NCBI GenBank assembly: GCA_963575745.1
Contig: CAUYUJ010000114.1
Location: forward strand, 62,001 to 126,000
DNA: 64,000 bases
Source of the DNA: Prorocentrum cordatum
Lineage: Eukaryota
Reading direction: 5' to 3'
Part shown: one piece after another, positions 3,016-44,840 of the stretch
How positions within the stretch are numbered: the stretch's first letter is position 1
How the letters are laid out: every line of letters begins with the position of its first letter
Notes under the pieces: generated by a model
Told to the model about the DNA's origin: nothing
Databases searched by the model: none
The model's input: the letters and a program-made list of their open reading frames with translations, nothing else
Program-made: the position numbers and the translations under genes

Positions 3016-3821
3016 TCACTCGTCACTCTCGTCGCTGTCGCCGTAGCCCACGCCCATGAGATTGTAACCGACAGCCATGGCCCGTTGTGCGTCAGCGTTC
3101 TGCGGCATGGCACGAATGCGCAAGCGCATCTCGCCGAGGAACACGCTCAACACCACCTGCGCGACCGTGCAGGCGGATGAGTCGAATGCATTGCCGGCCA
3201 TGTTCTTCAAAAACGAAGAACTGAACTCCATCATACGACCGGCGACCTCGCTCGCCCGCGGCTGCGGCCCGAGCAATTCACCGACGAGGGAACCCATCAT
3301 CATCAGATGTTCCACTCCATGGGCAAGCCTGCCCATATGAGCTAGATAAACCAAGCTCTTCTCGGTGAGGCACGCCGAACCATGCTTGATGAGCTCGCGG
3401 GAGCGACCGAAGGACATGTTGACATCTACGGTGCTCGGCTCATCCTCTGGCAATGACAAGTTGAGTCTCTCCAGCATGTCGAGCTGCCTGGCGGCCAACG
3501 CCTTCAAACCTGGATATCGCGCGGCCGCGCCCTCCTCCCGGAACGGCGAGGGCTGCCACCAAACAGAACCAGCCTTATTATTCCACACGGCGTGTCTGCC
3601 AGGCCATAAAGGGGCGGCCTCCTTCTTCTGTTTCTTCCGCGGCGGCTCAGCCGTCGCTGAGGAATTCACGTAGTCCTCTAGGCTGGCGTGTCTCTCCGGG
3701 AGAAGGAACTCGTCCAAGGGGGCCGCAGGGTGGTGGGACAGGCGGGCCAACACGGCCAGCGCCTTCGCCGCGAACTCCTCCTGCGAGACGCCAGCGGCCT
3801 CGAGCAAATCGTTCTTGACAC
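3016..3821 (-). CDS. DNMT exon 4 (target-recognition region, motifs IX-X)
   Basis: Acceptor ttctaag|gt gtc aag aac gat. ORF 3016..3807 contains DVNMSFGR, SACLTEKS, GVEHLMMMG and MAGNAF. Confidence 0.85.
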
Positions 3822-6800
3822 CTTAGAACCCCCGCCAATCGCAAATCGGGGCGCGGGGCGCAGAGAGGGGAAAGGGAGAAGGTAGGGGAGATGGGGGGCG
3901 ATGACAGAGAACAGAGACGAGAGAGGGGGGGCGGGGATGGGGATGGAAGAGGCGAGAGACAAGAGGAAGGAGGAAAGGGACGGGGAGGAGGGGAGAGAGC
4001 AAGGGAAAAGGGGAAGGAGCAGGGGGGGGATGTGAGAGGGAGGGGAGGAGGGAGGGGGGGAGGGGGGGGGGAAGAAGCGGGGGAAAAGGTGAATGTGGGA
4101 GAAGGGAAAAGAGGACAAAGGTGGGGGGGAAATACGTAAGATGGGGGAGGGAGGAAGGATGAGGGACGAGGGAGAAGGAATCAGGGCCCACGGCGTCGCA
4201 ATATTCCATTGGTTGGGGCTTGCTTGCGCCATCGGTTGCGCCCTCGTCCGCCGAGAATCAAACAAGCTCTTATTGCTTGCGCCATAGGTTGCGCCCTGGG
4301 GCGCCGAGAATAAAACGGGCCCCTAACATATGCGACCAGTTCAGTCCAGTCCAGTCCAGTTCAGCTTACTACGCGAAAAACAAATTCGGGCTACGCCCGA
4401 CAACAATCAAAACTAAGCTCGGCGACATGTTTAGTTTTTGTTTTCTGTGCGCGCACCTACGCAGATGCATACGTGCATATTGCGTATGGCAAATATGCAC
4501 ATAGCGAACACGCGGCCCGACGCCCGAACAAATAACCAATTGCAGGGCCCGGCTCCCGACTCCGTGCAATTGAGAAAAACAGAAAACAGAGATGCCCTTA
4601 TCCCCTCCCACCTCCCACCTCCTTAACGGTTGCGCGCAGAGAGAAGTTCGGATCCCGGGGCCCGAGGCAGTGCGAAGCACGGGACATGGGGCGCGCGACA
4701 TCGCGGGGGCGCACTCGCGCGCCCCCGCGCTTCACGCGCGGCACAACGCGCAACCCCATACCCCATGCCCCCATCGCGCGCGCGGGGGGGGGGGCGTTAG
4801 CGCGCGGCGCGCGGCCCCCTCTCCCCGCGCGCGGATGCTTCCCCCCGTGGGGCCGCGAAACGTTTGGGGCATGGGGAATGGGCGGGGGCACGGGGGATGA
4901 GGAGTGGGAAATGGGAAATGAGGATGAGGAGTGGGGAGCGGGGAATGGGCGGGGCGAAATCATTTCATGTGGATGCAGACGCACCCGCTGGGGGCTGGGG
5001 CCTTAGGCCTTAGGCTTTAGACCTTAGATTCTGAATTGAGCTCCCAACGGGGTCGCGAAGCGCGAAGCGTGGGAGGGGCGCGCCGAAAACCGAGGCGGGG
5101 GGCGGCGCGCGGGCGCGCGGGCGCAGCCGCTCGGGCTTCAGGCTCTAGCCAGGCGATGCGACGGGGGCCCCCGCCCCCCCTTAGGATGTCGGTCGTTTGA
5201 CTGTTTGACTTGTTTCTTGTTCGGTGGTCGGGGGTCTGGGATCTGGGGGCCGAGGTCCGAGGTCCGAGGGGATTGCATAATGGATAATCAGCGGTCTCCA
5301 CTGCGGCTGGGGGCTGGGGAGGGGGGATGGGGGGAGGGGCGAGGAGCTCAAACGCCGCGGCCTCGACGCCTTGACCTCGTTGACATTGTCAACCTGGTGG
5401 ACGGGCTGGCCGCGCTCCACCGCGCGCCGCGTTCTTCAATCAACGCGCTGCAGGCTGCAGCTTGGATGGCGTTGTTGTCGGCTCGGCCGGCCTCCTTCAG
5501 GGGCGCCGCGCAACCCTCCAGCACCATCCTGCGGCAACCCGAGTAGTTAGCGTCGGGGCCGAAAATGCGCGCTGCCAGGGGCAACGGGCAACAGCCCGGC
5601 GCCCCCACCAGCCGCGCGGCTCAAATGGGGCCGCCCTGGGGGCCGGGAGCGGCATGTGGACGCAGCCGCTGGAAGCTGGAAGCTGGACCTCGCGCCTTTT
5701 GCTGCGGCCAGCGGCCAGCGGCCAGCGGCCGGCGGCGACGCGCGCGAGGCTCTCATCTTTGACGCGCACGAAACGCGCGCTTCGAGCTCATAGCCCGACG
5801 GCCCACGGCCTGCGGCTTGCGGCATGCATCTCCACCTCCGAAGCGCCGTCTTCGTCCATGGGCCCACGTTACCCAAGATGTGGGATGTGGGATGCGGCCT
5901 TCGCGCGCCTCTCCGTCCGCAATGCCATCCTCGGACGCGCCTGCGCGCGCGGCGTGCATCGCAAGAGGCAGGCGTCCATCCTAGAACTCGCGACAAGAGG
6001 CAAGAGACAAGACCGGGTAATATTTGAGAGCCCCCACGATGCGCTTCGCACGCTCGGGCGAGGGTGCAGCGACCCGCCGCGTGGCCGATGCGGGCACTTG
6101 GCGAAATGCAGGTAGGACGTAGGACGTAGGACGCGAGCTCGGGCTTGCTCTGCCTTGTCCGCTATCGCCTCAAGTCGCTCAAGGGGCATGAAGCTTCCCT
6201 TGCCATCGTGCGCAGTCAGCTGCGGCGCGATTCGGTCGGCCGTCAATTGCCCGAGACAAAAGACAGGCCAGCCGCCGGCGCGGCGAAGGCATCCGCATAC
6301 TGCAACAAAGCAGTGTCCACCATGTCCTTCGCCATCTTGCCCAACGAGTTTTTACTTTCGTCGCTCTCTGCGGCGTTCCGCCTAACGTGGGCGACCTGTC
6401 AATCCGATTGACCTCTGCTACGCGGCCACGTGCGCGGCGCAAGGCTTGATCGCCGTCATCGTACGCATCAACGGATGCCGCGTGCTCTAAGAGCTGTGCT
6501 ATCACGTGCTCACGCCCGCGCCGCGCAGCGATATGGTGCGCAGAGCGCAGTGCCCCCCGCGGCGCCTGCTGAATGCTGAAGTCAACAGTCAACAGTCAAC
6601 AAGACATTCAAGCCACTCTTCGCGACTGGCGCAAGCGCGCCCACGGCTTACGGCTTGCAGCTTGCAGCTTGCGCAAGCCGAACCTGGTGCCTTGGTGCAC
6701 CATCGCCAGTCACCTAATTTCAGTCCATGTGCATCTGCATCGCCTCCACCTCGATCCTCGGCCCCCATCCCCCATCCGCCATCCGCCGCTGCTGCTCGCG

Positions 6801-7784
6801 CCTCGCGCCCTCTGCGCGCGCGCGGGCCAGCGCCCCCGGCCGCCGGCCACCGCTGCTTCCGCGAAATCGCGGCAGCTGGTCGCCAGAGAAAGTTTACGCG
6901 CCCTCTGCGACTCCTTGCGCGCACGTCCCACAAGGGGCAAGGGGTTCACCTGACCTCGCCGTTCCCATGACGGGGCGGTAGCCCGTGGGTCCGCGCAAGG
7001 ATGGGGGGCTCGCCAATGTTGGCAAGGCCGCGGTCAGAGGGTTTAACCTCTCTGGCCGAGCGCCGAGCGCCGATGGGCCATGGGGCGGCAAGTCGCAAGC
7101 GGCAACCACGCCGCGGGCGCTACATGCCCGGCCGCCGCGAAAACTTGCGGATCTGGGATCTGGCGCCGCGCGCCGCAGCCGCCGCGCGGCGCCCGGCGCC
7201 CCATGATGCGGGGCGCCCGCGAGGGCATTGTTGGGACAGGAGAAAGGAGAAAAGAGAAAGGACGACGACGAGGAACGAGGACCCATCACTTGCCGCTCGC
7301 GGCTCGCGCAGGCACGCGCGCCACGGCGGCAACCGCGCCTAAAGAAAAAAGAAAGGAAGTGGGGCAAGGCACAGGGCAAGGAGGGCGGGGGGCGCGAGGG
7401 ACATAAAATCAACAATCAACAACGAAACGTGTTTCTGGCGCGTCGCGCGTCGCGTTGGCCCGTTGACCGTTTCTGGTTTACGTGCATGCTGCGTGCCATG
7501 CGATGGCAAGCAACGCGCAAATCGCGGCGTACGCGTGTCCCGATGAAGGTTGTAAAAGTTGCGCGCGGCACGCGGTGCGCGCACGCGCCGTGTGAAGCAA
7601 ATGAGGGCAAGCGCAGCGCGTGGAAGTTAAGAACTTTCATGTTCAAGTAGTCGAAATCAAAAACATGCGTTCTATAGTCTATAATACAATCAACAATCAA
7701 ATTCATGTTACATTGCCACAGTGCCAGCCGAAAAGTTCGATAATCTGACGACTGGTTGTGGAGTGGGAAGATGTGCTCCAACAT

Positions 7785-7819
<35 letters not shown>

Positions 7820-10800
7820 CTCCTCATTCTCTCCTCTCTCGTAATCGACGCCGCGGACAAGCGGGTTGTCGACCTGCCTTGGATGCCTTCAGCCTTCAGG
7901 CGAGCTTGAGGCCGGCGCCGCGACAAGACACCAATGCGTCACACACACGCAAGCACACCTTTTCCACGCCTCCGCGGGGACACCTCCAGCGCGCAGCGCG
8001 TCCAACATAGTCCACAGCTCGCAGCCCACAAACGACGCATACCACATACACGCAACACGCAACCCACACGCACGCACACGCGCGCACCTCGCACCTCGCA
8101 CCTCGCACCTGTCACTTGTTTCCACCGCGGCGCGGCGAACGCGCTGTCGTGACACGTGACAGGCAACTAGAGACACGCGCACCGCGCACACACGCCCGCG
8201 CACCGCGCGCAAGCGCACTCTCTTTTTCATCCTCCAACGCCCAACGCGAGGACGACTCCAGCGGGTGCGCTATGAATCGGGATTCGGGATGCGAAACATA
8301 AATTGAATATTGAATTGCAACACACACGCACACATGCACGCACACACGCACGCACGTCACGCGTCTTCTGCGCACTCAACCTATTTCCCTACCGCCTAGA
8401 GCCTATAGCCTAGAGCCTAGAGTCATCCAATGCCGCCTAGAGTCATCTGTCATCCAATGCCAGGCGGAGCATGCGCCGACAAACGCATCCAATGCCGCCG
8501 AACGCCAAATGCAAATTTGCGAACCAATCTGGAATCTGGTCTCAGGCTGGCTCAGGTCATAGGTATTTGGCATTGGGGCTTGGTCTGAAATCTTAGGTGC
8601 ATGCGCGGGGAGAGCCAGAGGGTTCCAGGTTCCAGCGGAAGGAGGAAGGACCTAGGACCTACCACCTACGAGAAACGAAGCATGTAACATGGAACACTGA
8701 GCCTCATTTCAACATCTTAACGGGGTTGATACTCCTTCTGGGGGTCGGCGGAATGGCGCGAGCCACATGAACCATTGATCGCAAATCGCACTGGGGTTAC
8801 TCCTTACTCCTGAGCCCTGAGCTTGCTACGCTGCACTTTGCGACACCTGGGCCCTGGGGGGGGAGGGGGGAGAGGAGAGAGGGGAGGGGGGAGGAGGGAG
8901 GAAAGAAAGCGGAAGGAGGAGTGGGGAGTTGGGTGAAAAGGGAAAGGGGAGAGAAGGGAGGTGGAAGGAGGAAGGAGGAAGGAGGGCAAGAGGTAGGAGG
9001 TAGGAGGTAGGGAGCAGGGAGGTAGGGGGTAGGAGAGGGGAGAGGGGAGAGGGGAGAGGGGATTGGATACTGGATGGGGGGGGGGGGTCGGCAGGAGGCG
9101 GGAGGTGGGAGGTGGCAGGGGAGGAGAGGGGAATGCATTGCCTCCAACGGGGCGATCGGGCGATCGGGATCGTCGTCGTCGCGAGTCGTGAGTCATGAGT
9201 CTTTAGGTGCCGGGCGTCGGCACGACAACGGGCAAGTGCTTTGGAGCTTGGAGCTCGGCAAGGTCAGCTGTCAGCTCTCAGCTCCCTGCCCCTGACTCCC
9301 TGCTCCCTACGGGCTATGGGCCACGGGCTATGGGCTATGGGGCCACGGGCCACGAAGCGTTTGAGGTGCGTGCCGATTGCCGATATGGAATATGGAATAT
9401 GGAGATATAGACGGTCTGGGGTCCGGGGCCTGGGGCCTGGGGGCCTGGGGGGTGCGGGGATGCATGCGAACGGCGAACGGTGCCACCAGCAGGGGGCTCA
9501 GAGTTTTGTTTCGTGTGTATCTGCAGATTCCGAGTGCGGGGTGTGGAGTGTGGGGCGTGGGACTGGGGAACGGGGAAGGGGGGCTTGGGGCTTGCCCAGC
9601 ACCCAGCACCCAGCAGTGACGTGGCATGTGGCAGAGGGCAGAGGGCATGAGGAGATCGGAGATCAGGAGGTGAGAGGCGAGAGGTGAGAGGTGACGTGAG
9701 AGGTGAGACGCGAGAGGTGGAAGGTGGAGGGTGGGGGGTGGATGATCAAGAAGCAGGGATCAACCAAGCTTGGTTAGGGTAAGCGCCAAGGCCCAAGGCG
9801 CCCAGGCTGATGACTGCTGACTGCTGACTGTTTCCTGGTTTCTGATTCCAGCTTCCTGCTCCCTGCTCGTCGGGATTCGGGATGATGGCGGGAGGCGGCC
9901 TCTGCCCGGCGTTGCGGGCGGCGGCCTATCTCCCATCTGTCACCTTTCACCTTTGACCATTGTGTAGGCCGTAGGCGGTAGGCGTGCCAGAGGCCAGAGG
10001 CGAGATGCCAGATCAGATGTCATAATGCCAGAATCGGGATTCCTAAGCTAGTCTTGGCCTCTTGGCCAGGGCCATCCTGGCCCAGGATCGGAGCGCGCGC
10101 CTTGATTGGCCAGGGCATGGGGCATGGGGCATGGGGCATAGGGCAAGGGGCATGGAGTAAGGAATCGGAAGGCGGAGGGCGGAGGAGGATGCAGGAACTG
10201 GGGGGCGGAGGGAAAAGGGAGAGCGGGAGAGGGAGAAGGGGACATGGAAGTGGCAAAGAGCAAGGAGCAAGGATGGCGCCCACGCTGATCCCGGGCGCAG
10301 TGTGGCCGCGGCCTGGAAGCACTGAGCACTGCTGGGCAAAGATGGGACCTTCACCATCCATCACGAAGCGCCCTTGCCTGCTATCCGCCACCGTGCTCCC
10401 CTGGCACGCGGCACGCTGAGGCGTGGTACGTAACGCGTAACGAGGGGGCCGACGCCCAACGTGGCCCAATATGGCATATGGCCCCAGACGCCCAGACCCC
10501 AGACCGCGCCAGATGGAAGCTGGAAGCTGGAACAATATGGCTTCCTACCCCCGATCCCCTATACCCGTGGGCCGTGGGCCCGAGAGGGCCTCGGATGGAA
10601 GATGGAAGATGGACCCACGACCTAAGACCTAAGACCTACGACCCGCGATGTCATCGAGCATCGAGCATCGAGGCAGCCCCCCGAGATGCCGAGATGCCGA
10701 GAGGCGAGAGGCCAAGACAATCCAAAAAAGCCCCAGAATCCCACGGCAGGGGGAAGGGCCCCACAACGGCCGACGGCGCGAAAGGGACGCACGACGCACG

Positions 10801-13800
10801 ATAACCCCAGGAAAACAGAAAGCGGAGAGCCGCAGGCAGTGTATTTGAAAGGGTGCGCAGACCTGTGCAAGCGCGCAGGACCACTGATCACTTAGAGTCT
10901 AGAGAACAGAGAACAGAGAACTGCGTCCTCGCAAATTATGCGAGAGGGGGCAGGGGGCTGTAATGCCATGCCCCACTCGCTCCACTAGCTCGCTAGCTGC
11001 TAGCTCGCTGCTCACTTCCAAAGCCCCTGATCGTATTCTCACACACGCGCACCTTCCAGTCCAGGTCCGAGAGCCTACCCGAAGTCTCAGTAGTCTGCTG
11101 GTTCACCTGCGTCATCTGCCGATCTATCTGGTCCATGCGGTTGGTGATGGTCTGCATCTCATTAGTATTATGCCGGCTCACCTGCGTCATCTCCTGACCC
11201 AGCTGGTCCATGCGGTTGGTGGTGGCCTGCATCTGCTGCTCCGTATTGGCCAAAGCCAAGGTGGTGGCCAAGGCAGATGCTCTGTCACCTGCTCCGTCAC
11301 CTGCTGCTGCACCTGCTGCTCCGTCACCTGCTGCTGCACCTGCTGCTCCGGCACCTGCTGCCGCACCTGCTGATCCGCTCGATCCGCCCGATGCCGCGGC
11401 TGCCTCCAGTGCTTGCCCGCGTGCCTCGGAGGCCTGCAGGCGATCATTTGCATCCCTAAGCTGCCTCTGGAGCTGTTCTGAGCATCCCTCAGCCGCCTGG
11501 AGACGATCCTCCATTGCCTTCATGCGCTGGTCCCAGCCCGCTAGATGCCGCACGAAGAATTGCTCCAATGGCTCCTGCAAGCGAGTCGTCATGCCCATCA
11601 CGCGCTGGTCCGTCTCCAGCAGCTGATCCTGCACTTGCCGCAATTGATCCGATAGTTGGTCCTGGATGCGCTGGACCTCGCGCTCGGCCTCCTGCAAGTT
11701 GGTCTCCGCGCTGGACATCGTCGTCTCCACGTCCTGCAGATGGGTCCCCGCGCGGGTAGCCGTCGCCTCCGCGCGCTGCAACGTGCCCTCCGCCTCCTGC
11801 ACCTGATTCGCCAGGCTATCGCGAACCTCCTGCGCCCGCTGCAGAGTCTGCAGAGTGGTGTCCACAGTCTTGCGAAATGCAGCCGCCTCGTTCGCCTGGG
11901 CCTGCGACCACGCTGGCCAAGACTGACCTGCACCATCACTTGGAGCAGCTGCTGCCTGAGTGGGCTGCCCGCGGAGCTGCCTGTCATCACCAGCTGCTGC
12001 CGCAACGCCTGCACCTGGCGGAGCTCCTGGTGGCGGACTTGGCCGAGGCGGAGGAACTGGTGCCGCTCCCGCTGCGGCTCCCGCTGCCGCTGCCGCTGCC
12101 GCTGCCGCGTGCCGGACGCCGCCCCACGAGGCTGGGCGCGGGGGCCGCTGTGGGTTCGAGATCACAGCATCCTCTTGGCCAGATTCTTTCAACCACGCCA
12201 TCAAGAGTGCATCAACACTGCTCAGGTGCTTCTCCGACATCAGGTGGGTGTCCCAGTCCGCGTGTTCCCCGCGATTGCAGCAGTACGCGTTGCAAAGTTC
12301 GCAATGAAAACATTGCCACTCAGGTACATACTTGAGGTAGTTGACGGGCTCCATAGTCGACTCCCAGACCTGCGGCGCGATCATGGCTGTCGTCGGCGTA
12401 GCCCTGCGAGACATGTCTGCAGGCTGCGCCCGCCGCCCGCACTATGAGAAGGCAGTTCGCTGTTCGCTAGCCGCTAGCTGCTAGCTGAATGCTGAATGTC
12501 GACAGCTGAAAAGTCGATGCTCAATGCTCGACTGGATGTCGAGCGTCGAGCCAAAACGACTGCGGCCATCGGCCATCTCGCGTTTCGCGCTGGCACTTTG
12601 CATGGGGGCTTCTTGGAAGCCTTCTAGGGGGCCGGGGGCCTGCTGAAAGCGCCGAGCGTCGAAGTTCGTGTGCCCCCATCCCCCATCTTGGATCTTGGGG
12701 TCCTGGATCCTGGATCCTGGGCCCAACGCTCTCTGATCTCTGACCCAGTCCGCGACGCGCGGTTACCTTCGCGCCCCGCGCCCCTGGGGCGCGACCGGCG
12801 ACCTAACATCTTGCAGTGACCAATTGCCCTCGCACCTCGCACCCCCCCCCCCTCCCCCCCGAGCCCCGAGGGGTGATGGGGGGGAGAGATGCGAGATGAG
12901 GAATGAGAGGGGAAGGAGAGGGGAGAGGGAAGATGGGAGGGAGAGGGAGGAGGGAGGAGGGAGGTGGAGAGTGCGACTGCATACTGCATACTGCATGATG
13001 CATGATGCACGAGGGATTGGGGCTTGGGGCTTGGGGCGGTTGGAAGAACGAGTGAAGAATGAAGAATGCAGGATGCAGGATGCAGAATGGGATGCGGGAT
13101 GCGGCATGGACAGCGGGTTGGCATGGGAGATGAGAGATGGGAGATGGGAGGGAAGAGGGAAGGGAAGAGGGATGAGAGGGAAGAGGGGAAGGGGGACGGG
13201 GCCGAGGGTCGAGATGGGGGATTGGGGATGGGGGGAGGGGGAGGGAGAATGAGCGGTGGGAGGTGGGAGGGGTGGAGGGTGGAGGGTGGAGGGAGAAGAG
13301 AGGAGAGAGGAGAGAGGAGAGGGGAGAGGGGGGAGGAGGGAGGGAGGAGTGGGAGAAGAGAGGAGAGAGGAGAGAGGAGAGGGGAGAGGGGGGAGGAGGG
13401 AGGGAGGAGTGGGAGGAGGGAGGAGGGAGGAGAGGGGCGAGCGGGAGTTGACGGTAGACGGTAGACGGTAGACGAGCAGGTCTCGGGCCTCGAGGTGACA
13501 GATCACAGATCCCTGTCAGATGTCAGATGTCAGATGTACGACGTAGGACGCAGGACCCAGGAACCCAGGACTCAGGATCTCAGGATGGCTGATGGCTGAG
13601 AAGGAGACACAAAATGTAAAGGCGTGTTCGCGAACAGGGGAAGCCAAAATGCCTGGGATCCAGCTGCAAGGTGACCGAGGCAAAACCGGCCTCTGTGCTG
13701 AGGCGGTACACCGCCACGTCCAGGTTGGAGGGCCCCATGATGGTGTACTTCCCCCCCGCCGACATGTGCCTCGGCGGGGTCTTCGCGGTCTCGACATTCT

Positions 13801-16800
13801 CCAGAATATAGCCCACCTTAGAGCAATTGGCACTGGGCAGCAGCAGCAAAGAGCAGGGTCCGGGGTCCAGGTGGCGAGAATGGAATGAAGACTAAGGACA
13901 AGGGAGGGGACGAATCGGAGAGAAGAGGATGGGATATGGGATATAGGAGATAGGGGATAGGGGATAGGAGATAAGGTGGGATAGGATATGAGAGATAGGA
14001 GCTAGGAGAAGGAGAGAAGCAGAAGGAGATGATGGATGATGATGAGCGGGATGCGAGGTGCAAGATGGCGGTGGTGACGGTGATGGGTGATGGGTGATGG
14101 GGGGCGACAGTGATGATGATGATGATGATGATGAGGATGAGGATGATGATGGATGATGGATGATGGCGATGATGAGGGCGAGCGGAGAGCGGAGGCGGAC
14201 GGGGTGGGGAGGAATGAAGAATGAGGGATGAGGAATGAGGGCGAGTGGCGAGTCGGAGGTAACAGGTAACGAGGCCAGAGGGAACGCGTATGTAATGAAG
14301 ATTTAAGGCTTACTGGGCAACAGGCTCCGAGGAGGGAGGAGGACGGAGGGCAAGAGGAGAGAGGGGGGAGGGAGGAGGGGGGGGGGGGTGGGGGGGGAGG
14401 GGGGGGGGGGAGGGGGGGGGAGGGGGGATGGGGGATGGGGGACTCCAGACTCCAGACTCCAGACTCCTGGAAGGACCTGGCGACAGAAGGGAGAAGGGGG
14501 AAGCAGCAGGGAAGAGGGGAGCGGGAGAGAAAGACTCGGGACTCCTGAGAGACTCGGCGCTGCGGACTGCGGGCTCCTCCCTCCCCCCTCCTCCCTCCTC
14601 CCTCCCCCCTCCTCCCACGACGCCCCGGAGGGCGGAGAGCCAGGGCAGCGGCGCGTTAGCGCGTTAGCGCGATCGGTCCTCGTGGCTCGTGGCTCGTAGG
14701 AGGAGGGGGAGGGAGGAAGGAGGAGGGAGGAGAGAGGAGGAGGAGGAAGACGAGGAAGCGGGGCGGAGGACGGAAGGCCGCTAGGGCGGCCCAGAGGGCC
14801 ACAGGTCGGGGCCGACGCAAGCGGCAGGCAAGCGGCAGGTGGCCGGCAGGAACGGCCCCTCATGGGCGGCAGGTGGCTGGCAGGAGCGGCCCCCTCATGG
14901 CAGTGCTGCAGGCCCCCCTCCCCCTGATAGCTGGCCCCCCCCCGATAGCTGGCAGCCCCCCTCCCCCTGATAGCTGGCAGCCCCACCCCCTGATAGCTGG
15001 CAGCCCCCCTCCCCCCCTTCCTGGCAGCCCCCCCCCTGATAAAACATACAAAACGCTTGTGTTTTTGTAACTGTCCGCCCCCTGCCAGCGACGCCTGCCA
15101 GCTATTCCTGCCAGCTATCCTGCCCCCCCAGCTCTCCCGTCAGCTATGTCGTCAGCTATGCCGTCAGCTATGCCGTCAGCTATGCCGTCAGCTATCCGCC
15201 AGCTATCCGTCAGCTATCCGTCAGCTATCCGTCAGCTATCCGTCAGCTATCACATCGGGCTCCTCGGAGCCTCCTTGGAGGCTGGAGGCCGGAGGCCCGC
15301 GGGCCCGCGGCCCGCGTCGGGGTTCGGGTCGGGCGGGGGTTGGGGGCTGGGTGGCTGGGTGCTGGGTGGGAGGAGCCAGGGGCCAGCAGCCAGCGCGCCG
15401 CTCGCCGCTCGCCCTTGCGCCCCTGCACCCTGCACCCTGCCTCCTGCCTCCGAACTCCGAACTCCGAAGGTCCGAAGGCTATGGGCTGCTCCTTTTCCCT
15501 TTCCTCCTGCCTCCTGCCTCCTGCCTCCTCCCTCCTCCTTCCTCCTCCTCATCCCTCCTCCCTCCTCCTCCTCCCTTCTCCCTTCTCTCTTCTCCTCCTC
15601 CTCCTCCTCCAATGCCCTCGCGCAGGTCGCAGGTCAGACCGAATGCCCCCCTAGTTTCCAGTTACCCCCGCCCCCCGCCCACACGCACCACGCACCGCGG
15701 CCCACGGCGTCAAACAGTTCAACGAACCACGGACCGCGGGCCACGGACCACGGACCCCAAGACGCGAGACGCCCCCAGAGCCCAGAGCCCAGAGGGCAGA
15801 GGGCCCCCCCAAGACGGTCGACAGACGATCGATGCCAGATGCCAGATGCCCGATTATTTTTTCTTTCACCGCGGCCCCGCGGCCTGCAGAGGCAAAAGAC
15901 ACGCCGCGCGCCGCGCGCCGCGCGCGGGGACGCGTCTCGCGGCTCGCCGCAGCACAAGGCGCAGGGCGCAGGGTGAAAGGGCCGCCGGCGGCAGCGAGAC
16001 GCGAGACCTCAGACCGACGACCGACCTGGGCCATTCGCCATTCGTCGGCCGTCGGCCCATGCCCGTATCTGTCATCTGTCATGTGTCATGGGTCGTGGGT
16101 AGCTGGTAGCTGGTAGCTAGTAGCTAGTCGCTCGTCTTCGGGAACATGGCCTCTATGCATTCGTCGGCTTGTACACTCCACACATCGCTTCGATCTTCTC
16201 CACGGATGGTGAACTTCAGGACGATATTATGCTTGCCCATCTCGCTCACCAGCGAGACGCATTCCAATGACGCGCTGGGGCCATGCGGACACGAATTGCT
16301 ATCAGGGTGCTCTGCAGAGAGCCGCCTTAACCATACTTGGTCTGTGATACTGATACTCCCCGACTCCGACTGCTGGGACTCGATCGTGCGCAGCGTGTCG
16401 AACGCATCAGCTTTGTCCTTGGGCCCGTGGCCAGCCCAGCCCTTCTGGTCCTCGGGAACACCGCCCTTGTTGTCCACAACGCCCTTGTTGTCCTCGCCGC
16501 CCGTCTCGCACTCGTCGCCCTCGTTGCCCTTCTTGCGCCTCCTCTTGCCGCGCTTCTTGGTGCTGATGAGGTTCGCCGGGGCCGCCGACTTCGAGTTGCG
16601 CTCGCACCTCCTGGTGTCCAACGCCCTGCGCATCGCATCTTCCCACCGCCGCTGCCGCTGCCCCTCCCAGGGCTTCGGCGAGATGGGCTCCACGATATGC
16701 GCGGCCCCCTGCTTGTGCCTGGCAGTCTGCGCGTGATCCTGATCCACGCCGTACAATTTCCACCACTCTTGGACCTGTATGTCCCAGTGCATGCATATGA

Positions 16801-19800
16801 ACATGTTGTTATTGACATGGATTCCTTGGCGCCACAGAGATGGGACCCCTCGCTTATCTTCAAGAAAGAGTGGATTCCCTGCTTGGCGTATCTTATGTGT
16901 TTGGCCTTCGCCACGTGCGAGTCGCGATCCTGCTCGCCCACGAGCGTGTCGCAATACACGCGCGCAAATCCTTCGGCGGTCTCGTCGAACGGGTCATTCG
17001 TACTGTAGTCTTGCAACATAGGGAAGTCCTTGCCTGGCCGCGGCATCGGGGGCTCTCCATCCGCGCGCTCATCATCGCCAGAGTCGTGGCCCACCCGCGC
17101 ATCGTCGTCCGAGTTGCGCGCGCCCCTGCGAGAGCGCTCGGAGTCGCCCCCCGCATCGGAGTCGTCAGCGAACCAGAACTCATTGTCGCCTGTGTAACCC
17201 GTGTACGTGTTCTTGCCCCCGCGCCGGCGCTCATCGTCGTCCTTGTCCTTGTCCTTGTCCCCGCGCCAGCGCTCCTCGTCGGCCGTGGCATCGTCCTTGT
17301 CTTTGACCCCGCGCCAGCGCTCCTCGTCGCCCGTGTCCTCGTCCTTGGCTACTTTGACCCCGCGCCAGCGCTCCGAGCCCGAGCTCGACGCGCCTTGGTC
17401 GCGCTCCACGAACTCCTTGTCCTTGAGGCTGAGCGCCTTGAGCACGATGCAGCGCGGCTGCCGACGCGATGGGGGTCGCGACCTGAGAGGTGACATTCGC
17501 CTGGCCAGCCCCCTCCGGGCATCACTCCCTGTCTCAGACATCATTCTCCCAAACTTTCTCAGCCTCCCGAAGGCATCCCGCCGAGATGTTCGGGAGGCAG
17601 CCGCCGCCAACTCTCCAGCTTCCTCTATGGGCATCCCCAGATCAGCAATCTGTTGGCGCCGAGAAGGTGTCAGTTGGCTAGGATGTGGTGTCATCATTCC
17701 GCTGGACGAACTCATGTTGCTGTTGCTACGCGCTGCGCTGCTGCGCCAGCGCGCGCCGCGCGCGCGCGCGCGCGCCGGCCCCCGGCGGCAGCCCTCGCCG
17801 GCGGCCGCAGCCACCGGCCTTGTGCTTTGTTTGAGCCAAAACGGCTATGAGCTACGGGATCGGGGATCGAGGTTCGAGGGTGGCCAACCCACGACGGCCC
17901 AAGGCCCAACGGCCCAAGGCCCAACCCAAGACGGCCCAACCTAACCCCCCAACCCCCAACCCCGCCCCGCACCCCGCACTTTCGCATGGTTGGGTCCCCC
18001 GTCCCCCGCCAACTTCCACCTTTCTTGCGGCGTTGGGGGTTGGGGGTTGGGGGATTGGGGGATTGGGGTGCGGGGTGCGGGGGTGTTGGGCGTCGGGCCA
18101 TCGGCCATCGGCGTGCACTTTGCACCCGCGGCGCGCATCGCTGTCCTTTTAACTGTTGCTTTCTGCTCTCTGCTTTCTTCATTGCTGCATGCTGCGTGCT
18201 GATTGCTGATTGCTGATTGCTGCTTGCTGCTGGCTGTTGGCTGCTGGTTGCTGGCTGCTGGCTGCTGGCTGCTTGCTGATTGCTGATTGCTGATTGCTGC
18301 TTCCCGCTTGCCGCATGCTGCTTGCTGCTGGCTTCGGTTGATCTCCCCATGGGGCCACGACGCGCGCGACGCGTGGAATGTGGAATGCGAGGTGCGAGGG
18401 GTGGCGTGCCGAGATGGGCGGTGGGGGCGCGGGGCGCGGGGCGCCACTGAGATTTCGGATTTCGATGCTCGATGCCCGATGCCCGATACTTCCGCTGGAG
18501 GTTGGAGCCCCCAGCTCCCTGTGGGATGTGGGATGTGGGAGCTGGGAGTCCTGAGTCCTGGCCCTGGCTGAGGGCTGAGGAGGAGGAGGGAGGAGGGAGG
18601 AATGAGGAGGGAGGAGGGGAGAGGGGGGAAGGGGGAAGGGGAGGAGGGAGGAGGGATGAGGGAGTAGCGAGGAAGGCAGAAGGCAGGAGGCAGGAGGCAA
18701 TACGTTGTACGTAGTGCGCGTCGCCGCCGGCTGTCCCTTTCAAAACGAAGACCCAACGCGCCGCGGGGCAGCAGCAACGGCGGCAGCAACAGCAACAGCA
18801 ACAGAAACAGAGCCCGGCAAGCAACGATCTCGAATCTCGACCCTCGACCCTCGACCCTCGACCCTCGAGGCAGGCGGCAGGCTACGCAGGGGGCAGGGGC
18901 GCAGGGGCCAGGCGCTAGGCTCAGCACGCATACGACAGCTGAGCCTTCAAGAGATCGAGGATGTCGTTGAAGACCTTCCCAGTCCTGTAGCGGGCAGCGG
19001 GCGGCGGGCATGCTTATCCCTTATCCCCCGCCACCCGCCTCCTCCTCCTCCTCCTCCCTCCTCCTACGCCCCGCGCCTCCTCCCTCCCCCCTCCTCCCTC
19101 CCCCCCCTTCCCCCTTCCTCCCCTCCCCCTTCCTCCTTCCTCCTCCTCTCCTCCTCCGCCTCCTTCTTCACCCTTCACCGACAGCGACGTCGTCGCCTTT
19201 CTTCTCCTCGCAGCGCGCTCTGCCACTGCCCACTGCCCGCTGCCACATGCCGCACCCTGCTCAACGCTCAACGCTCGACTGCCAACTGCCCACTCCAACG
19301 TCCAACCTCCACCTCCCTTCTCCTCATTCCTAATTCCTATAATCCATACCCCATACCTCCTACCTTCTACGTGCCAGTTGCCAGGTGCAAGGTATACCCC
19401 GCCCCTCTCCCTCCTTCCGCCCCCCACCTCCCGCCCCCCACCCGCGCCCCTCCTCCCTCCTTCATCCCCCTTTCTTCTCGTAATATCGTCCTCATCCTCC
19501 ATCCTCCTCGACCCTCGGCCCTCGGCTGCATCTCCCCCTTCTCCCTTCTCCCTTCTCTCTTGACTCTTGACTTTAATGCTGCATCCTGGCTGCTGATCGC
19601 TGATCCTCGTCGGCCTCCCGCCCCCTCCTCATTGTTCATTACTCATTACTCATTGCTCGTTGCCCTCCTCATCCCTCATCCCAAGACCCAAGATATGCAA
19701 ATCGAGTCCTGTGTGTCCCGGCTGCAACGCAATACATGTTGCCTTCGTCGCGGCAGTGATGGTTCACGCGAGCCACGTCGTCGCAGGGGGAGCCAGCTAC

Positions 19801-20322
19801 GAGGCCATCGGCCTTCTCTATCATCTGCTCCGTGTCCGTGATGCGGTCGGTCGCAATGGCCGTCTTGAGGTCGGCTGCATCTGAAAATATTGAAGGGCAG
19901 TCTGGGTGCAGCTTAATGATGAACCTCTGCTTGCAAGGATCGTTCTCGCAGGCCCAGACCTGCCGATACGCTAGATCAGGACCTGGGGCGCGCGACTCTG
20001 AACTGCAGACTGCGCGCGCCAGGGCCTTATTGCACCAGACAGCCAAATCCGTGCCACTACAGATCGTGCTGAAAGTAATCTCGCCGAGAGTGCTAATTGC
20101 CTTCATGTCATTTGGGTTCAGCCTGGCAACCAAGCGCTTAGCAAGCGCGGCCTGCCCGCCCTGGGGCGAATCGATGACCACCTCGCCAGGCTGCTGCCGC
20201 GCGAGCAATTGGGGCAGCGGCCCCTGAAACGGAGACTTCAGCACCTCTACAACCTTGAGCACGCCCGACTTCCACATAGCTATGTAATGCGCGGTCGCCC
20301 CGGCGGCGGCCTCCTTGGACAT
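3016..20322 (-). CDS. DNMT5-like C5 cytosine DNA methyltransferase, 4 exons (20322-19709, 18984-18945, 13816-13609, 3821-3016), about 555 aa, no SNF2 domain seen
   Basis: Motifs occur in canonical order: I STICSGTD, II WACEND, IV VAGSPC (catalytic Cys intact), V TGKVF, VI ILENV, VIII GFPCSRTRLYILCVKND, target-recognition region SACLT, IX GRLAHGVEHLMMMG, X NMAGNAF. Exon lengths 614+40+208+806 = 1668 nt keep the frame. Donors are GA/GC/GT and acceptors are AG|G. Confidence 0.8.
4221..4311. repeat. Two imperfect direct copies of a ~40-nt unit (tgcttgcgccat.ggttgcgccct..cgccgagaat)
   Basis: Copies at about 4221-4260 and 4273-4311. A nearby hairpin gtgcatatt..aatatgcac lies at about 4473-4500. 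Confidence 0.7.
6245..6560 (-). pseudogene. Decayed ankyrin-repeat gene fragment inside DNMT intron 3
   Basis: HHIAARRGREHVIAQLLEHAASVDAYDDGDQAL matches the ankyrin consensus (LHxAAxxGHxxVVxxLLxxGAxVDxxD). Another frame gives ESKNSLGKMAKDM. Confidence 0.65.
10993..12414 (-). CDS. Intronless 473-aa protein: C2H2 (matrin/U1-like) zinc finger, Pro/Ala linker, long coiled coil; nested in DNMT intron 3
   Basis: CELC..HLMSEKH motif, Q/E/L-rich helical C-terminal region, clean ATG-to-TAG ORF, and a spliced-leader-like motif about 130 nt upstream. Confidence 0.75.
   Translation of the reverse strand: MSRRATPTTAMIAPQVWESTMEPVNYLKYVPEWQCFHCELCNAYCCNRGEHADWDTHLMSEKHLSSVDALLMAWLKESGQEDAVISNPQRPPRPASWGGVRHAAAAAAAAAGAAAGAAPVPPPRPSPPPGAPPGAGVAAAAGDDRQLRGQPTQAAAAPSDGAGQSWPAWSQAQANEAAAFRKTVDTTLQTLQRAQEVRDSLANQVQEAEGTLQRAEATATRAGTHLQDVETTMSSAETNLQEAEREVQRIQDQLSDQLRQVQDQLLETDQRVMGMTTRLQEPLEQFFVRHLAGWDQRMKAMEDRLQAAEGCSEQLQRQLRDANDRLQASEARGQALEAAAASGGSSGSAGAAAGAGAAGAAAGDGAAGAAAGDGAGDRASALATTLALANTEQQMQATTNRMDQLGQEMTQVSRHNTNEMQTITNRMDQIDRQMTQVNQQTTETSGRLSDLDWKVRVCENTIRGFGSEQRASS
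12546..12565 (-). other. Relict dinoflagellate spliced-leader-like sequence
   Basis: Minus strand reads ccgcagtcgttttggctcga versus DinoSL CCGTAGCCATTTTGGCTCAA (16/20). Confidence 0.65.
13609..13816 (-). CDS. DNMT exon 3 (motifs VI-VIII)
   Basis: VGYILENV..LDPRHFGFPCSRTRLYIL. Acceptor ctctaag|gtg and GT donor at 13608. Confidence 0.85.
14870..15250. repeat. Foldback/MITE-like element with inverted arrays of a GATAGCTGRC motif
   Basis: The left arm repeats ctgatagctggcagcccc and the right arm repeats (g/t)ccgtcagctat / gccagctatc. They flank an AT-rich spacer aaaacata..tgtttttg at about 15040-15068. Confidence 0.6.
16124..17715 (-). CDS. Unknown ~512-aa charged protein (2 exons: 17715-16878, 16824-16124) nested in DNMT intron 2
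   Basis: ORFs 16327..17814 and 16124..16954 both contain QGIH. A 53-nt GA-AG intron (16877-16825) flanked by the repeat ggaatcca joins them in frame. There are internal ERWRGxKDKD repeats and a spliced-leader relict upstream. Confidence 0.65.
17831..17849 (-). other. Relict spliced-leader-like sequence
   Basis: Minus strand reads catagccgttttggctcaa versus DinoSL CGTAGCCATTTTGGCTCAA (17/19), 115 nt upstream of ATG 17715. Confidence 0.8.
18945..18984 (-). CDS. DNMT exon 2 (40-nt micro-exon, motif V region)
   Basis: ctacag|g act ggg aag gtc ttc aac gac atc ctc gat ctc ttg aag|gc encodes (R)TGKVFNDILDLLK. It is not in the ORF track. The 3' boundary is uncertain. Confidence 0.7.
19709..20322 (-). 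CDS. DNMT exon 1 (motifs I-IV)
   Basis: ORF 19669..20322 contains TFSTICSGTD, QVWACENDPCKQRFI, IFSDAADL and DGLVAGSPCDDVARVN. Confidence 0.9.
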
Positions 20323-23737: not shown

Positions 23738-32029
<8,292 letters not shown>

Positions 32030-35460: not shown

Positions 35461-35473
35461 AAACGTTAAAGGT

Positions 35474-35870
35474 TAAGTGGCAGGCCTCTCTGGGAACGCC
35501 AAAAGTTAAGTGGCAGGCCTCTCTGGGAACGCCAAACAGGCCTCTCTGGGAACGCCAAAGTGGCAGGCCTCTCTGGGAACGCCAAAAGATAAGTGGCAGG
35601 CCTCTCTGGGAACGCCAAAAGATAAGTGGCAGGCCTCTCTGGGAACGCCAAAAGATAAGTGGCAGGCCTCTCTGGGAACGCCAAAAGATAAGTGGCAGGC
35701 CTCTCTGGGAACGCCAAAAGATAAGTGGCAGGCCCCTCTGGGAAACGCCAAAAGATAAGTGGCAGGCCTCTCTGGGAACGCCAGATGATAAGTGGCAGGC
35801 CTCTCTGGGAACGCCAAAAGATAAGAAGCAGGCCTCTCTGGGAACGCCGAAATCATAAGTGGCAGCCCCC
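35474..35870. repeat. 33-bp minisatellite (gataagtggcaggcctctctgggaacgccaaaa), about 12 copies
   Basis: Head-to-tail units without spacers; 11-aa periodicity in the ORF track. Confidence 0.95.
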
Positions 35871-36373
35871 CCTGGGGCCCTCTAAGCAAGCGCGCCCAAA
35901 GTTACAGGGAGGCCGACCCTAACTCGTCTTCCAGCACCTTCCAGCGCGGCGGTCACACCAGCCGCCGTAACCTCTCCAGGTTGCGGTTGTTGTGGTGCAC
36001 CTCCATCGCCGTTCACCTCCTCGGTCTCAGGGACCTCCAGACCCACCGTTTATGATCCTCGTGGGGCTGCGTCTACGTCTCGCGCAGCTGGCTCATTTCC
36101 TTCACGTGTCTCGTCGCCCTCGAAAGCTTGAGTTGCGTCCACCATATCCGGCGGCTCCTCTTTCTGCATGCTCATCAGCGTCTGCTCCATGATGTTGAAT
36201 TGCTCTCGAGCGCTGATTCCCAGCGCCTCGTCAGGCGACGCTCGCCTCACGGCGGCCGGATCACACTTCATTGAGAGGCCCTCGTGCGACCCGCATGTGG
36301 CAGCCGGCTCGACGCCAATGACCACGGCCGGCCCATGCCAAGCCTTGAAAAGTAACGCAGGTCCTCGACGACG

Positions 36374-37300: not shown

Positions 37301-37469
37301 TGTACCTCCTTCGAAACCTTCGCCGCCGTGGGATTCGCCTGCTCGAACGTTTCCTCCGTGGCGGGGAAATCCTCGAACCCGCGATCGTCCAGCTCCTCGT
37401 GGTCCACGTCCGACCAGTGCTCGGGCTCCTCCTCAGCGTAGAGCACCTCCTTTGAACCGCACAGCATCC

Positions 37470-44200: not shown

Positions 44201-44840
44201 GCGTCGACCACGCCGAGCCCTTTTCTCGAAGCTCGCAGACCTCTAACAGCAAGGTGCATATGGTGACCTGTGACGCCGAGGTCGCGCTCGATTATTTTCT
44301 CGCATATCCCGCCACGTTTCCTCCAATGTCGTAATTGTGTTCGCCACGCGCGCCCCAGAGCTCTCGACTCCATCCCCGCGGCTAGCTTCCTCGTCGCGTG
44401 TCGTGTGCTGGCGGCCCGAGGGCCCGAAGCGGGCCTCTCCAAGGACCCGGCCTCGCAAACAAAACAATCACAAAGTGCCGTCGTGATATTTTCAGGACGC
44501 TGAGATAGGAAACGGCAGCTACACCCCATCATCCCTGATCGGCCAGGGCCGTCCTGGCCTCGACCATGAGGACCTGTACACCATTCTGGGGCCAAGGGTG
44601 GCCCTGGCCACGAACTGCGGTGCTGTACAGTAGACACATACGATAAGAAGTCTAGACATCCGAAATATTGGAACACCTTTTTCCTGTACCTTTGAGGGTC
44701 CGAAGGTGCCCCAGAGCTTCTGTGGGTCTCTGGGGCCTCGGGTATATGGAATTTCCGGTTGGCAGCTGCTGGCAGGCCGATGACTAATTTCATGTGCCTA
44801 CTGTACGGCTTCACCGTGCCTTGCGCGGACAGGCATGGTG

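What the first reader, a model, noticed from the sequence alone, without database searches (positions are those of the whole stretch)
3016..20322. DNMT5-like methyltransferase hidden in four exons over 17.3 kb, with whole genes inside its introns
Seen: motifs I-IV (20.3-19.7 kb), V (40-nt micro-exon at 18.98 kb), VI-VIII (13.8 kb) and IX-X (3.8-3.0 kb) are collinear. They splice in phase into a 555-aa stop-free protein: cac ag|g act (HRTGKVF), aag|gtg, and ttg t|gt gtc (RLYILCVKND). Introns are 724, 5128 and 9787 nt. Known: CSGT in motif I, CLT, GxExL and AGNA resemble the DNMT5 family, which in fungi carries an SNF2 ATPase; none is seen here. Inference: a stand-alone enzyme with an intact catalytic PC that outlasted the broken transposase next to it. 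The exon 2/3 junction makes the motif V-VI spacing about 4 aa short, so a further micro-exon is possible.
Basis: partly seen in the sequence, partly recalled or inferred. Interest (0 to 1): 0.88.

Follow-up and report, generated by a model that had tools for sequence, protein, structure and literature searches.

The report
Split stand-alone DNMT5-type cytosine methyltransferase gene
Four collinear minus-strand pieces spread over 17.3 kb really do encode one intact DNA cytosine methyltransferase of the DNMT5 type without its usual ATPase, a kind of gene already described in dinoflagellate algae, so it is a good annotation rather than a new kind of enzyme.

Summary
The four pieces join into 1668 nt, giving 555 aa with one terminal stop. 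A profile of 23 full-length relatives of about 500 aa ranks these four pieces as the four best of 1936 six-frame pieces in the window. They tile the profile in order. That family profile matches the methyltransferase domain of Cryptococcus DNMT5 (PDB 7R76) end to end at E 2.9e-62, against 8e-15 for M.HhaI. Start and stop codons coincide with those of relatives, and no SNF2 domain was found. Exon-by-exon trees place every piece in the same small clade.

Junctions 1 and 3 are the best of all in-frame options. Junction 2 is probably misplaced: shifted splice sites recover 5-9 missing residues, so no extra micro-exon is needed.

A GA donor, G after every acceptor and a one-strand bias of ORFs suggest a dinoflagellate. 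SNF2-less DNMT5 ("DNMT5c") is already described in that group.

Not supported: a neighbouring transposase, and the status of the intronic ORFs as genes. Expression could not be tested. Verdict: new member of a known kind, modest interest.

The parts
19709..20322 (-). Exon 1 (614 nt, 204 codons + 2 nt). ATG at 20322-20320. Motif I CSGTD at 20061-20047, motif II ACE, motif IV GSPC with the catalytic Cys codon at 19785-19783.
   Evidence: HMM hit E 1e-40 to profile positions 23-179. 67% identity to P0001, including the start. PDB 7R76 at E 4.3e-5.
18985..19708 (-). Intron 1 (724 nt), GA..AG, filled with G-rich simple repeats.
   Evidence: Junction 19709/18984 is the best of 98 in-frame donor/acceptor combinations. 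The protein prediction P0001 diverges into a G-rich tail right after the same codon (THR). No terminal inverted repeat was found.
19705..19712 (-). First copy of the 8-nt direct repeat ACAGGACT, spanning the exon 1/intron 1 boundary (ACAG|GACT).
   Evidence: Read. It supplies the GA donor.
18981..18988 (-). Second copy of ACAGGACT, spanning the intron 1/exon 2 boundary (ACAG|GACT).
   Evidence: Read. It supplies the AG acceptor and the following G.
18945..18984 (-). Its 3' end may lie 5-15 nt further on, at 18940, 18937 or 18930.
   Evidence: Fourth-best of 1936 six-frame pieces, profile positions 176-193. Aligns with RTGKVF... of P0003, P0004 and P0006. Alternative donors score 5-9 bits higher.
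13817..18944 (-). Intron 2 (5128 nt as drawn, GC..AG; 5104-5113 nt in the alternatives). Holds overlapping same-strand ORFs 16330-17844 and 16127-16993 and many period-7 simple repeats.
   Evidence: The ORFs have no Pfam family and the Atlas gave no usable hit.
13609..13816 (-). Exon 3 (208 nt; may start at 13832). Motif VI ENV at 13801-13793, motif VIII SRTR at 13633-13622.
   Evidence: HMM hit E 4.5e-17, profile positions 201-260. tblastn segments of 12 relatives among the 45 queries printed.
3822..13608 (-). Intron 3 (9787 nt), GT..AG. Holds the same-strand 482-aa ORF 10996-12441 (zinc-finger-like N-terminus by eye, repetitive coiled-coil-like remainder).
   Evidence: Junction 13609/3821 is the best of 73 in-frame combinations. 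The ORF has only sub-threshold Pfam coiled-coil noise and no relatives.
3016..3821 (-). Exon 4 (806 nt including the stop at 3018-3016). Target-recognition region, CLT and GVEHL motifs, motif X AGNAF at 3198-3184, acidic DSDESDE tail.
   Evidence: HMM hit E 6e-52, profile positions 259-497. tblastn E 3e-42 to P0007. The stop aligns with the ends of P0003, P0004 and P0007.

Best explanation
This is one nuclear gene, on the minus strand from 20322 to 3016, for a single-domain C5 DNA-cytosine methyltransferase of the DNMT5 clade. It lacks the SNF2 ATPase and RING parts of classical DNMT5. This is the 'DNMT5c'-type architecture described in dinoflagellates.

The gene has four exons and three spliceosomal introns of 724 nt, about 5.1 kb and 9.8 kb. 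The spliced product is 555-564 aa, depending on where junction 2 really lies.

Shown here: homology, collinearity, an intact frame, conserved start and stop, and conserved catalytic motifs.

Inferred: the protein binds AdoMet through motifs I-III (CSGTD, ACE). It attacks C6 of a flipped-out cytosine with Cys180 of the PC dipeptide, helped by ENV and RxR. It reads its target with the long region between motifs VIII and IX, which it shares with DNMT5.

The protein keeps the canonical Pro before the catalytic Cys. It also keeps a hydrophobic Val at the motif V position. In Cryptococcus DNMT5 these positions are Ser439 and Thr462, and the structure paper ties both changes to ATP-gated cofactor binding. 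I therefore infer that this enzyme methylates without an ATPase partner.

The host is probably a GC-rich dinoflagellate. Intron 1 looks insertion-born: an 8-nt direct repeat, ACAGGACT, provides both its GA donor and its AG acceptor.
For: - Frame and arithmetic: 1668 nt, 555 aa, one terminal stop.
- The four exons are the four best of 1936 six-frame pieces against the family HMM and tile it in order.
- Spliced models score 411-420 bits against that HMM.
- Junctions 1 and 3 are the top-scoring of 98 and 73 in-frame combinations.
- The family profile hits CnDNMT5 (7R76) at E 2.9e-62 over profile positions 30-495 and chain residues 292-733. M.HhaI scores 8e-15, DNMT1 about 5e-3 and DNMT3B 0.38.
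- Relatives P0003, P0004 and P0007 pass the Pfam PF00145 cut-off (33.1, 24.4 and 30.8 bits against 22).
- 34 of 38 columns conserved in at least 90% of relatives are kept. Members themselves score 0.63-1.0 leave-one-out.
- 15 of the 16 invariant columns of A1 are kept, by my reading of the alignments.
- The full tree places the model with P0003, P0004 and P0007 at support 0.988. Exon partitions give the same clade at 0.923, 0.893 and 0.929.
- Codon-position GC is coding-like in the exons: GC3 0.72-0.80 against GC2 0.45-0.48.
- All three acceptors are AG followed by G, and the donors are GA, GC and GT. This matches the dinoflagellate splice pattern described in 10.1101/2020.10.14.339549 (passages).
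- 23 of 27 compositionally complex ORFs of at least 180 aa lie on the minus strand, binomial p 3e-4.
- PC is present here and in 94 of 151 relatives. SC is present in 32, including the SNF2-bearing P0080. The Ser439 and Thr462 statements come from 10.1101/2021.10.01.462825 (passages), and the positions were matched through the alignment.
Against: - There is no transcript evidence. No RNA run was listed.
- The best junction 1 uses a GA donor, which is non-canonical outside dinoflagellates. The host lineage is inferred, not shown, and no spliced-leader relic was found.
- Junction 2 is unresolved among four candidates within 9 bits of each other.
- None of the four pieces alone reaches PF00145 in Pfam. 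Exons 3 and 4 alone gave no methyltransferase hit in the PDB.
- Motif IV reads GSPC where 121 of 151 relatives have F. Only 1 other has S. This could weaken the enzyme.
- The 8-nt repeat around intron 1 would also fit a disabling insertion.
- Genomic DNA of close relatives could not be obtained to compare intron positions.
Confidence: 0.75

Rival explanations
1. The locus is a dead relic. A once-contiguous, or differently spliced, DNMT5-type gene was broken by insertions of 0.7, 5 and 10 kb. It is no longer expressed as one mRNA, and the pieces merely remain recognisable.
For: - The 8-nt direct repeat ACAGGACT flanks the 724-nt insert exactly as a target-site duplication would.
- The inserts carry same-strand ORFs and dense simple repeats.
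- F to S next to the catalytic PC is seen in only 1 of 151 relatives.
- The model sits in the lower half of the family for conserved columns, 34 of 38.
Against: - No stop or frameshift occurs in 1668 nt.
- All three boundaries fall on G[A/C/T]...AG|G sites that restore the frame and the exact family spacing at junctions 1 and 3. Random insertion breakpoints would rarely do this three times. My rough estimate is below 1e-3.
- Start, stop and catalytic residues are conserved.
- P0001, at 67% identity, appears to break at the same codon. This suggests an old, tolerated intron.
Confidence: 0.15
2. The gene is real, but in a host with ordinary GT-AG splicing rather than a dinoflagellate. Intron 1 would then use the GT donor at 19688/19687, adding seven residues (TRFAYLG). 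Intron 2 would use GT at 18936 with the acceptor before 13832. The product would be about 570 aa.
For: - The GT donor at 19688 is in frame and gives 403.2 bits.
- No dinoflagellate spliced-leader relic occurs in the window.
- PMC12344493 (passage) says SNF2 was also lost in 'other algae'.
Against: - The GT version of junction 1 is 13 bits worse and inserts 7 residues where all aligned relatives have none.
- The acceptor at 13832 is followed by T, not the G seen at the other acceptors.
- The one-strand ORF bias and the GA/GC/GT donors with AG|G acceptors fit dinoflagellates.
Confidence: 0.12
3. The methyltransferase is cargo of a transposable element. Examples would be the retrotransposon-borne DNMTs of Symbiodinium, or a transposon with the 'broken transposase' the reader mentions.
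For: - The window holds a reverse-transcriptase-like ORF at 49037-50134 (RVT_1, E 1.5e-5, 25.3 bits against a cut-off of 29.6).
- Retrotransposon DNMTs are abundant in Symbiodinium (PMC5890265, passages).
Against: - Those element-borne DNMTs are intronless and belong to Dnmt3 or an orphan lineage, whereas the exon-containing Dnmt5 copies are host genes (PMC5890265, passages).
- This gene is DNMT5-type and has introns.
- The RT ORF lies about 29 kb away.
- No transposase or integrase Pfam family lies next to the gene.
- No second copy of any part occurs in the window.
Confidence: 0.03

Closest known systems
Cryptococcus neoformans DNMT5 (PDB 7R76, deposited as 'DNA repair protein Rad8'; 10.1101/2021.10.01.462825)
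   Same: The methyltransferase domain is homologous over its whole length, including the long region between motifs VIII and IX. The family profile scores E 2.9e-62 over chain residues 292-733. Exon 1 alone scores E 4.3e-5. It shares the small Cys in motif I (CSGT) and the CLT, GxEaL and LAGNA motifs.
   Different: The window protein has no SNF2 ATPase, RING or chromodomain, and is 555 aa against 2348 aa. It keeps the canonical Pro-Cys where CnDNMT5 has Ser439-Cys440. It keeps Val where CnDNMT5 has Thr462. ATP dependence is therefore not expected; this is inference.
Dinoflagellate SNF2-less DNMT5 ('DNMT5c' of Hoguin et al. 2023, PMC9998398; exon-rich Dnmt5 paralogues of Symbiodinium, de Mendoza et al. 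2018, PMC5890265)
   Same: It has a DNMT5-type catalytic domain with no accessory domain. It is a multi-exon nuclear gene. The splice pattern and one-strand gene order are compatible with a dinoflagellate.
   Different: Direct comparison with named DNMT5c sequences was not possible, because the relatives found carry no organism names. Symbiodinium DNMT genes are described as having many short exons (median about 65 bp). This gene has only four exons, two of them over 600 nt, and much longer introns.
Bacterial type II C5 methyltransferases such as M.HhaI (PF00145)
   Same: The motif order I, IV, VI, VIII, X is the same, as are the PC catalytic dipeptide, ENV and RxR. The profile matches M.HhaI at E 8e-15 over motifs IV-VIII.
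   Different: The similarity is much weaker and only partial. Motif I has Cys instead of the aromatic Phe. The target-recognition region is long and DNMT5-like.
Introner-like, target-site-duplication-flanked introns of dinoflagellates (Roy et al., 10.1101/2020.10.14.339549)
   Same: Intron 1 begins with GACT and the downstream exon begins with GACT. The full repeat is 8 nt, and a GA donor is recruited from the repeat. That paper describes 4-nt and 8-nt duplications beginning with G followed by A, C or T (GH). It also describes classes in which both splice sites come from the duplication, and finds GA donors commoner in young introns.
   Different: No terminal inverted repeats were found. No other copy of the insert occurs in the window. 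Family membership could not be tested without the genome. The apparent sharing of the intron position with P0001 (67% identity) argues that it is not young.

Membership tests
C5 cytosine DNA methyltransferase (Pfam PF00145) | Ordered catalytic motifs: I (AdoMet), IV (PC), VI (ENV), VIII (RxR), X (GNA) | tested here: met
   CSGTD, GSPC, ENV, SRTR and AGNAF are present in order and align to the family columns. 34 of 38 columns conserved in at least 90% of relatives are kept.
C5 cytosine DNA methyltransferase (Pfam PF00145) | Score above the Pfam gathering threshold | tested here: inconclusive
   None of the four pieces reaches PF00145 on its own. The joined protein could not be sent to the Pfam tool. 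Relatives P0003, P0004 and P0007 pass (33.1, 24.4 and 30.8 bits against 22). The joined model scores 411-420 bits against their HMM.
DNMT5 clade | Catalytic domain closer to DNMT5 than to DNMT1, DNMT3, DNMT2 or bacterial enzymes | tested here: met
   The family profile hits 7R76 at E 2.9e-62 end to end. The next hit is M.HhaI at 8e-15, then DNMT2 about 8e-4, DNMT1 about 5e-3 and DNMT3B 0.38. Exon 1 alone finds 7R76 as the only methyltransferase.
DNMT5 clade (classical DNMT5a/b architecture) | C-terminal SNF2-type ATPase (with or without RING) | tested here: not met
   The stop codon aligns with the ends of P0003, P0004 and P0007. No SNF2 or helicase family occurs in 94 window ORFs. Of the 4 long relatives tested, only P0080 has SNF2.
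DNMT5 clade (CnDNMT5-type ATP-gated enzyme) | Ser in place of Pro in the PC dipeptide, and a hydrophilic residue at the motif V position (S439, T462) | tested here: not met
   The window has Pro-Cys, and Val in TGKVF. The feature is taken from 10.1101/2021.10.01.462825 (passages).
DNMT5c (Hoguin et al. 2023) | DNMT5-related catalytic domain without the ATPase | tested here: met
   See the rows above.
DNMT5c (Hoguin et al. 2023) | Groups with the named dinoflagellate DNMT5c sequences in a tree; dinoflagellate host | not testable with these tools
   The relatives carry no organism names. The host is inferred only from splice pattern, ORF strand bias and GC.
Introner-like element intron (intron 1) | Direct repeat (target-site duplication) at both intron ends that supplies a splice site | tested here: met
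   ACAGGACT at 19712-19705 and 18988-18981. The GA donor and AG acceptor both lie inside the repeat.
Introner-like element intron (intron 1) | Terminal inverted repeats and many similar copies in other introns | tested here: not met
   No inverted repeat beyond shuffled controls occurs in the terminal 50 nt. No second copy occurs in the window. Genome-wide copy number could not be tested, as no genome is held.

The most novel reading that the evidence does not exclude
Two linked readings remain open.

(a) Intron 1 may be a readable fossil of intron birth by insertion inside an epigenetic-enzyme gene. A single 8-nt target duplication, ACAGGACT, would have delivered both the non-canonical GA donor and the AG|G acceptor, with no splice signal carried by the insert.

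(b) The SNF2-less clade keeps the canonical Pro-Cys and a hydrophobic motif V residue. It may therefore represent an ATP-independent form of DNMT5. Comparing it with the ATP-gated fungal enzyme would show which few substitutions created the dependence on the ATPase.
Probability: 0.3. Interest if true: 0.45.

Novelty: new member of a known kind. Interest (0 to 1): 0.3.

Why it matters
The finding gives a correct, homology-backed model for a gene that automatic annotation can easily miss or truncate. The gene has a 40-nt micro-exon, introns of 5 and 10 kb, and a GA donor. The relative P0001 looks like exactly such a truncated, exon-1-only prediction.

SNF2-less DNMT5 enzymes are the likely writers of the near-complete CG methylation reported in dinoflagellates. 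None has been characterised biochemically in the papers I read. A full-length coding sequence with canonical PC is a usable starting point for asking whether DNMT5 can work without its ATPase.

The enzyme class, its loss of SNF2 and the splice peculiarities are all already described, so a specialist would not be surprised.

Tried and rejected
- Whole-genome search: no genome is held for this window.
- RNA evidence: no RNA holder was listed.
- Protein word-index searches: exon 4 against longer proteins found nothing. P0003 gave 5 relatives, with one source name, 'site-specific DNA-cytosine methylase'. The intronic ORF 10996-12414 found nothing.
- Related DNA loci: two alignment queries were rejected as not conserved enough. 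Metagenome scans with exon 1 and with P0003 found no relative. The viral collection gave 61 loci, all weak (21-39% identity) and covering only part of the query, mostly motifs IV-VIII. By my reading these are generic C5 methylases. They are not this family and were not used further.
- ESM Atlas: exon 1 matched only generic PF00145 clusters of bacteria and phages, which gives no taxonomic help. ORF 16127-16993 gave no usable hit.
- Dinoflagellate spliced-leader relic: 0 matches with up to 3 mismatches.
- Terminal inverted repeats at intron ends: none beyond shuffles. My scoring there was crude.
- Earlier findings of this scan: nothing relevant.
- Considered and rejected: a giant-virus or phage origin (only weak viral hits), a retrotransposon-borne DNMT (see rivals), and an additional hidden micro-exon.
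- Not attempted: structure prediction and Pfam on the spliced protein. A joined sequence cannot be handed to those tools, so an in-box HMM was used instead.
Full report
**What is there.**
The window is GC-rich (0.50-0.67 in 2-kb steps), has no N, and no genome is held for it. They join to 1668 nt, in frame, giving 555 aa with one terminal stop. The introns are 724, 5128 and 9787 nt. The boundary dinucleotides are GA..AG, GC..AG and GT..AG, and every acceptor is followed by G.

**Is it more than chance?**
Exon 1 alone was searched against 1.84 billion representative proteins. It found 252 relatives at E up to 1e-3.
- One is a 232-aa protein at 67% identity (P0001).
- Many are full-length proteins of about 490-580 aa.

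tblastn of these on the window gives three collinear segments. For P0003 (529 aa) they are aa 4-191 to 20307-19705, aa 213-275 to 13807-13604, and aa 275-496 to 3819-3145.

I built an HMM from 23 full-length relatives (alignment A1) and scanned all 1936 six-frame pieces of at least 10 aa in the window. The four best hits are exactly the four exons, and they tile the profile in order:

| Piece | Profile positions | E-value |
|---|---|---|
| Exon 1 | 23-179 | 1e-40 |
| Micro-exon piece | 176-193 | 0.059 |
| Exon 3 | 201-260 | 4.5e-17 |
| Exon 4 | 259-497 | 6e-52 |

The fifth hit, at 56819-57094, has E 0.09 and is not collinear. The micro-exon peptide RTGKVFNDILDLLK aligns with RTGKVFDDIIRHMK (P0003) and RTGKVFSDILDFVK (P0006).

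**The junctions.**
I enumerated every in-frame, stop-free pair of a donor (any dinucleotide) and an AG acceptor near each junction. Each spliced protein was scored against the family HMM.
The best GT donor (19688) gives 403.2 bits and inserts seven residues.
The script listed eleven in-frame G[T/C/A]..AG pairs.

| Donor / acceptor | Bits | Length |
|---|---|---|
| 18940(GC)/13832 | 419.9 | 562 aa |
| 18930(GC)/13816 | 416.9 | 560 aa |
| 18937(GT)/13832 | 416.3 | 563 aa |

The missing spacing is recovered by moving the splice sites, so no extra micro-exon is needed.

**What family is it?**
None of the four pieces alone reaches PF00145, but P0003, P0004 and P0007 do.

In the PDB, exon 1 alone finds Cryptococcus DNMT5 (7R76, E 4.3e-5) as the only methyltransferase. 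The family profile matches that chain over profile positions 30-495 and chain residues 292-733 at E 2.9e-62. That span is the whole catalytic domain including the target-recognition region. Other hits are far weaker: M.HhaI 8e-15, DNMT2 about 8e-4, DNMT1 about 5e-3 and DNMT3B 0.38. The entry 7R76 is named together with DNMT5 in 10.1101/2021.10.01.462825 (search listing and passages).

A FastTree of 69 relatives covering at least 60% of the profile (82 of 151 relatives were dropped for low coverage) puts the spliced model with P0003, P0004 and P0007 at support 0.988. This clade lies inside a large clade of 360-680-aa proteins. The four long proteins, including the one with SNF2, lie elsewhere.

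Trees of the exon 1+2, exon 3 and exon 4 columns give the same neighbours, at support 0.923, 0.893 and 0.929.

**Stand-alone and intact.**
The ATG at 20322 aligns with the start of P0001. The acidic DSDESDE tail and stop align with the ends of P0003, P0004 and P0007. No SNF2 or helicase family was found in 94 window ORFs.

34 of 38 columns conserved in at least 90% of relatives are kept, within the range of true members. The misses are F to S in motif IV (GSPC), S to A, L to V and L to M. The second and third are shared with P0001.

F at that position occurs in 121 of 151 relatives and S in only one. That substitution is the one sign of possible weakening. Codon-position GC is coding-like in all large exons.

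**Likely host and the nature of the introns.**
- GA and GC donors and a G after the acceptor are described as typical of dinoflagellates (10.1101/2020.10.14.339549, passages).
- 23 of 27 compositionally complex ORFs of at least 180 aa lie on the minus strand (p 3e-4). So do all 17 that also show codon periodicity. This fits one-directional gene arrays.
- A GC-rich dinoflagellate genome with long introns is on record: Prorocentrum cordatum, 59.7% G+C (10.1101/2022.07.25.501386, passages).

I did not and cannot identify the organism. I put 'dinoflagellate' at about 70%. No spliced-leader relic was found.

Intron 1 is flanked by an exact 8-nt direct repeat, ACAG|GACT, at 19712-19705 and 18988-18981. 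Both its GA donor and its AG acceptor lie inside the repeat. This is the pattern that paper describes for insertion-born introns. However, I found no terminal inverted repeats and no second copy in the window. The protein prediction P0001 runs into a G-rich tail right after the same codon. That suggests the intron position is shared and old.

The introns are full of period-7 simple repeats.

**Mechanism (inferred).**
The protein has every catalytic element of a C5 methyltransferase, and its target-recognition region is homologous to that of a CG maintenance enzyme.

The CnDNMT5 structure paper attributes ATP-gated cofactor binding partly to Ser439 replacing the Pro of PC, and to Thr462 in motif V (passages). 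Through the alignment, the window protein has Pro and Val at those positions, like most of its short relatives. SC is found in 32 of 151 relatives, including the SNF2-bearing P0080. I therefore expect ATP-independent cytosine methylation, probably at CG. This was not tested.

**What is known.**
- Hoguin et al. 2023 (PMC9998398, passages) define DNMT5c as dinoflagellate-specific and lacking the ATPase.
- de Mendoza et al. 2018 (PMC5890265, passages) report several expressed, exon-rich Dnmt5 paralogues without extra domains in Symbiodinium.
- Sarre et al. 2025 (PMC12344493, passages) state that SNF2 was lost in dinoflagellates and other algae.

The architecture is thus already described. This locus is a new member, notable only for its few large exons, one micro-exon and very long introns.

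**Claims not upheld.**
- No transposase was found beside the gene. The nearest mobile-element signal is a sub-threshold RVT_1 at 49037-50134.
- The 'whole genes' in the introns are long same-strand ORFs without any family or relative. They may be genes, element remnants or by-products of GC-rich repeats.

**Limits.**
- No transcript data were available.
- No genomic DNA of close relatives could be obtained.
- The spliced protein could only be analysed in the script box.

Noticed in passing
window 1-64000: Strong one-strand bias. 23 of 27 compositionally complex ORFs of at least 180 aa lie on the minus strand, and so do all 17 with coding-like GC3>GC2. Almost none has a Pfam family. This suggests a one-directional array of lineage-specific genes or elements.
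   Followed up: partly
window 36377-38787 (-): Two overlapping long ORFs of 352 and 533 aa. By eye, the first looks like a DDE integrase core. The second carries FPRSPWS...ENPRGSRAW...DQCMYGL motifs faintly reminiscent of methyltransferase motifs IV and VI, with Arg where Cys would be. Neither has a Pfam or PDB hit. The resemblance is my impression only.
   Followed up: partly
window 49037-50134 (-): A reverse-transcriptase-like ORF (RVT_1, E 1.5e-5, 25.3 bits, below the 29.6 cut-off). This is the only mobile-element family signal in the window.
   Followed up: no
window 30534-31084 and 31309-31867: A direct duplication of about 560 nt at 95% identity.
   Followed up: no
window 35462-35876: A tandem array whose self-matches are offset by about 33 nt or multiples of it, at 84-90% identity. 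It encodes the repeated peptide ISGRPLWERQK in one frame.
   Followed up: no
window 44800-45820 (-): A long ATG/ATGATG-type repeat that reads as poly-Met, followed by (TG)n-type repeats giving Cys-Val runs.
   Followed up: no
window 10996-12441 (-), inside intron 3: A 482-aa ORF. Its N-terminus has a zinc-finger-like CxxC...H...H pattern (FHCELCNAYCCNRGEHADWDTHLMSEKH). The repetitive remainder contains 75-nt and 27-nt tandem repeats. No relatives were found.
   Followed up: partly
P0001 (relative, 232 aa): It looks like an exon-1-only gene prediction that reads through into an intron. It is 67% identical up to ...AAGTHR, followed by a G-rich low-complexity tail. This hints that relatives of this gene are truncated in public annotations.
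   Followed up: partly
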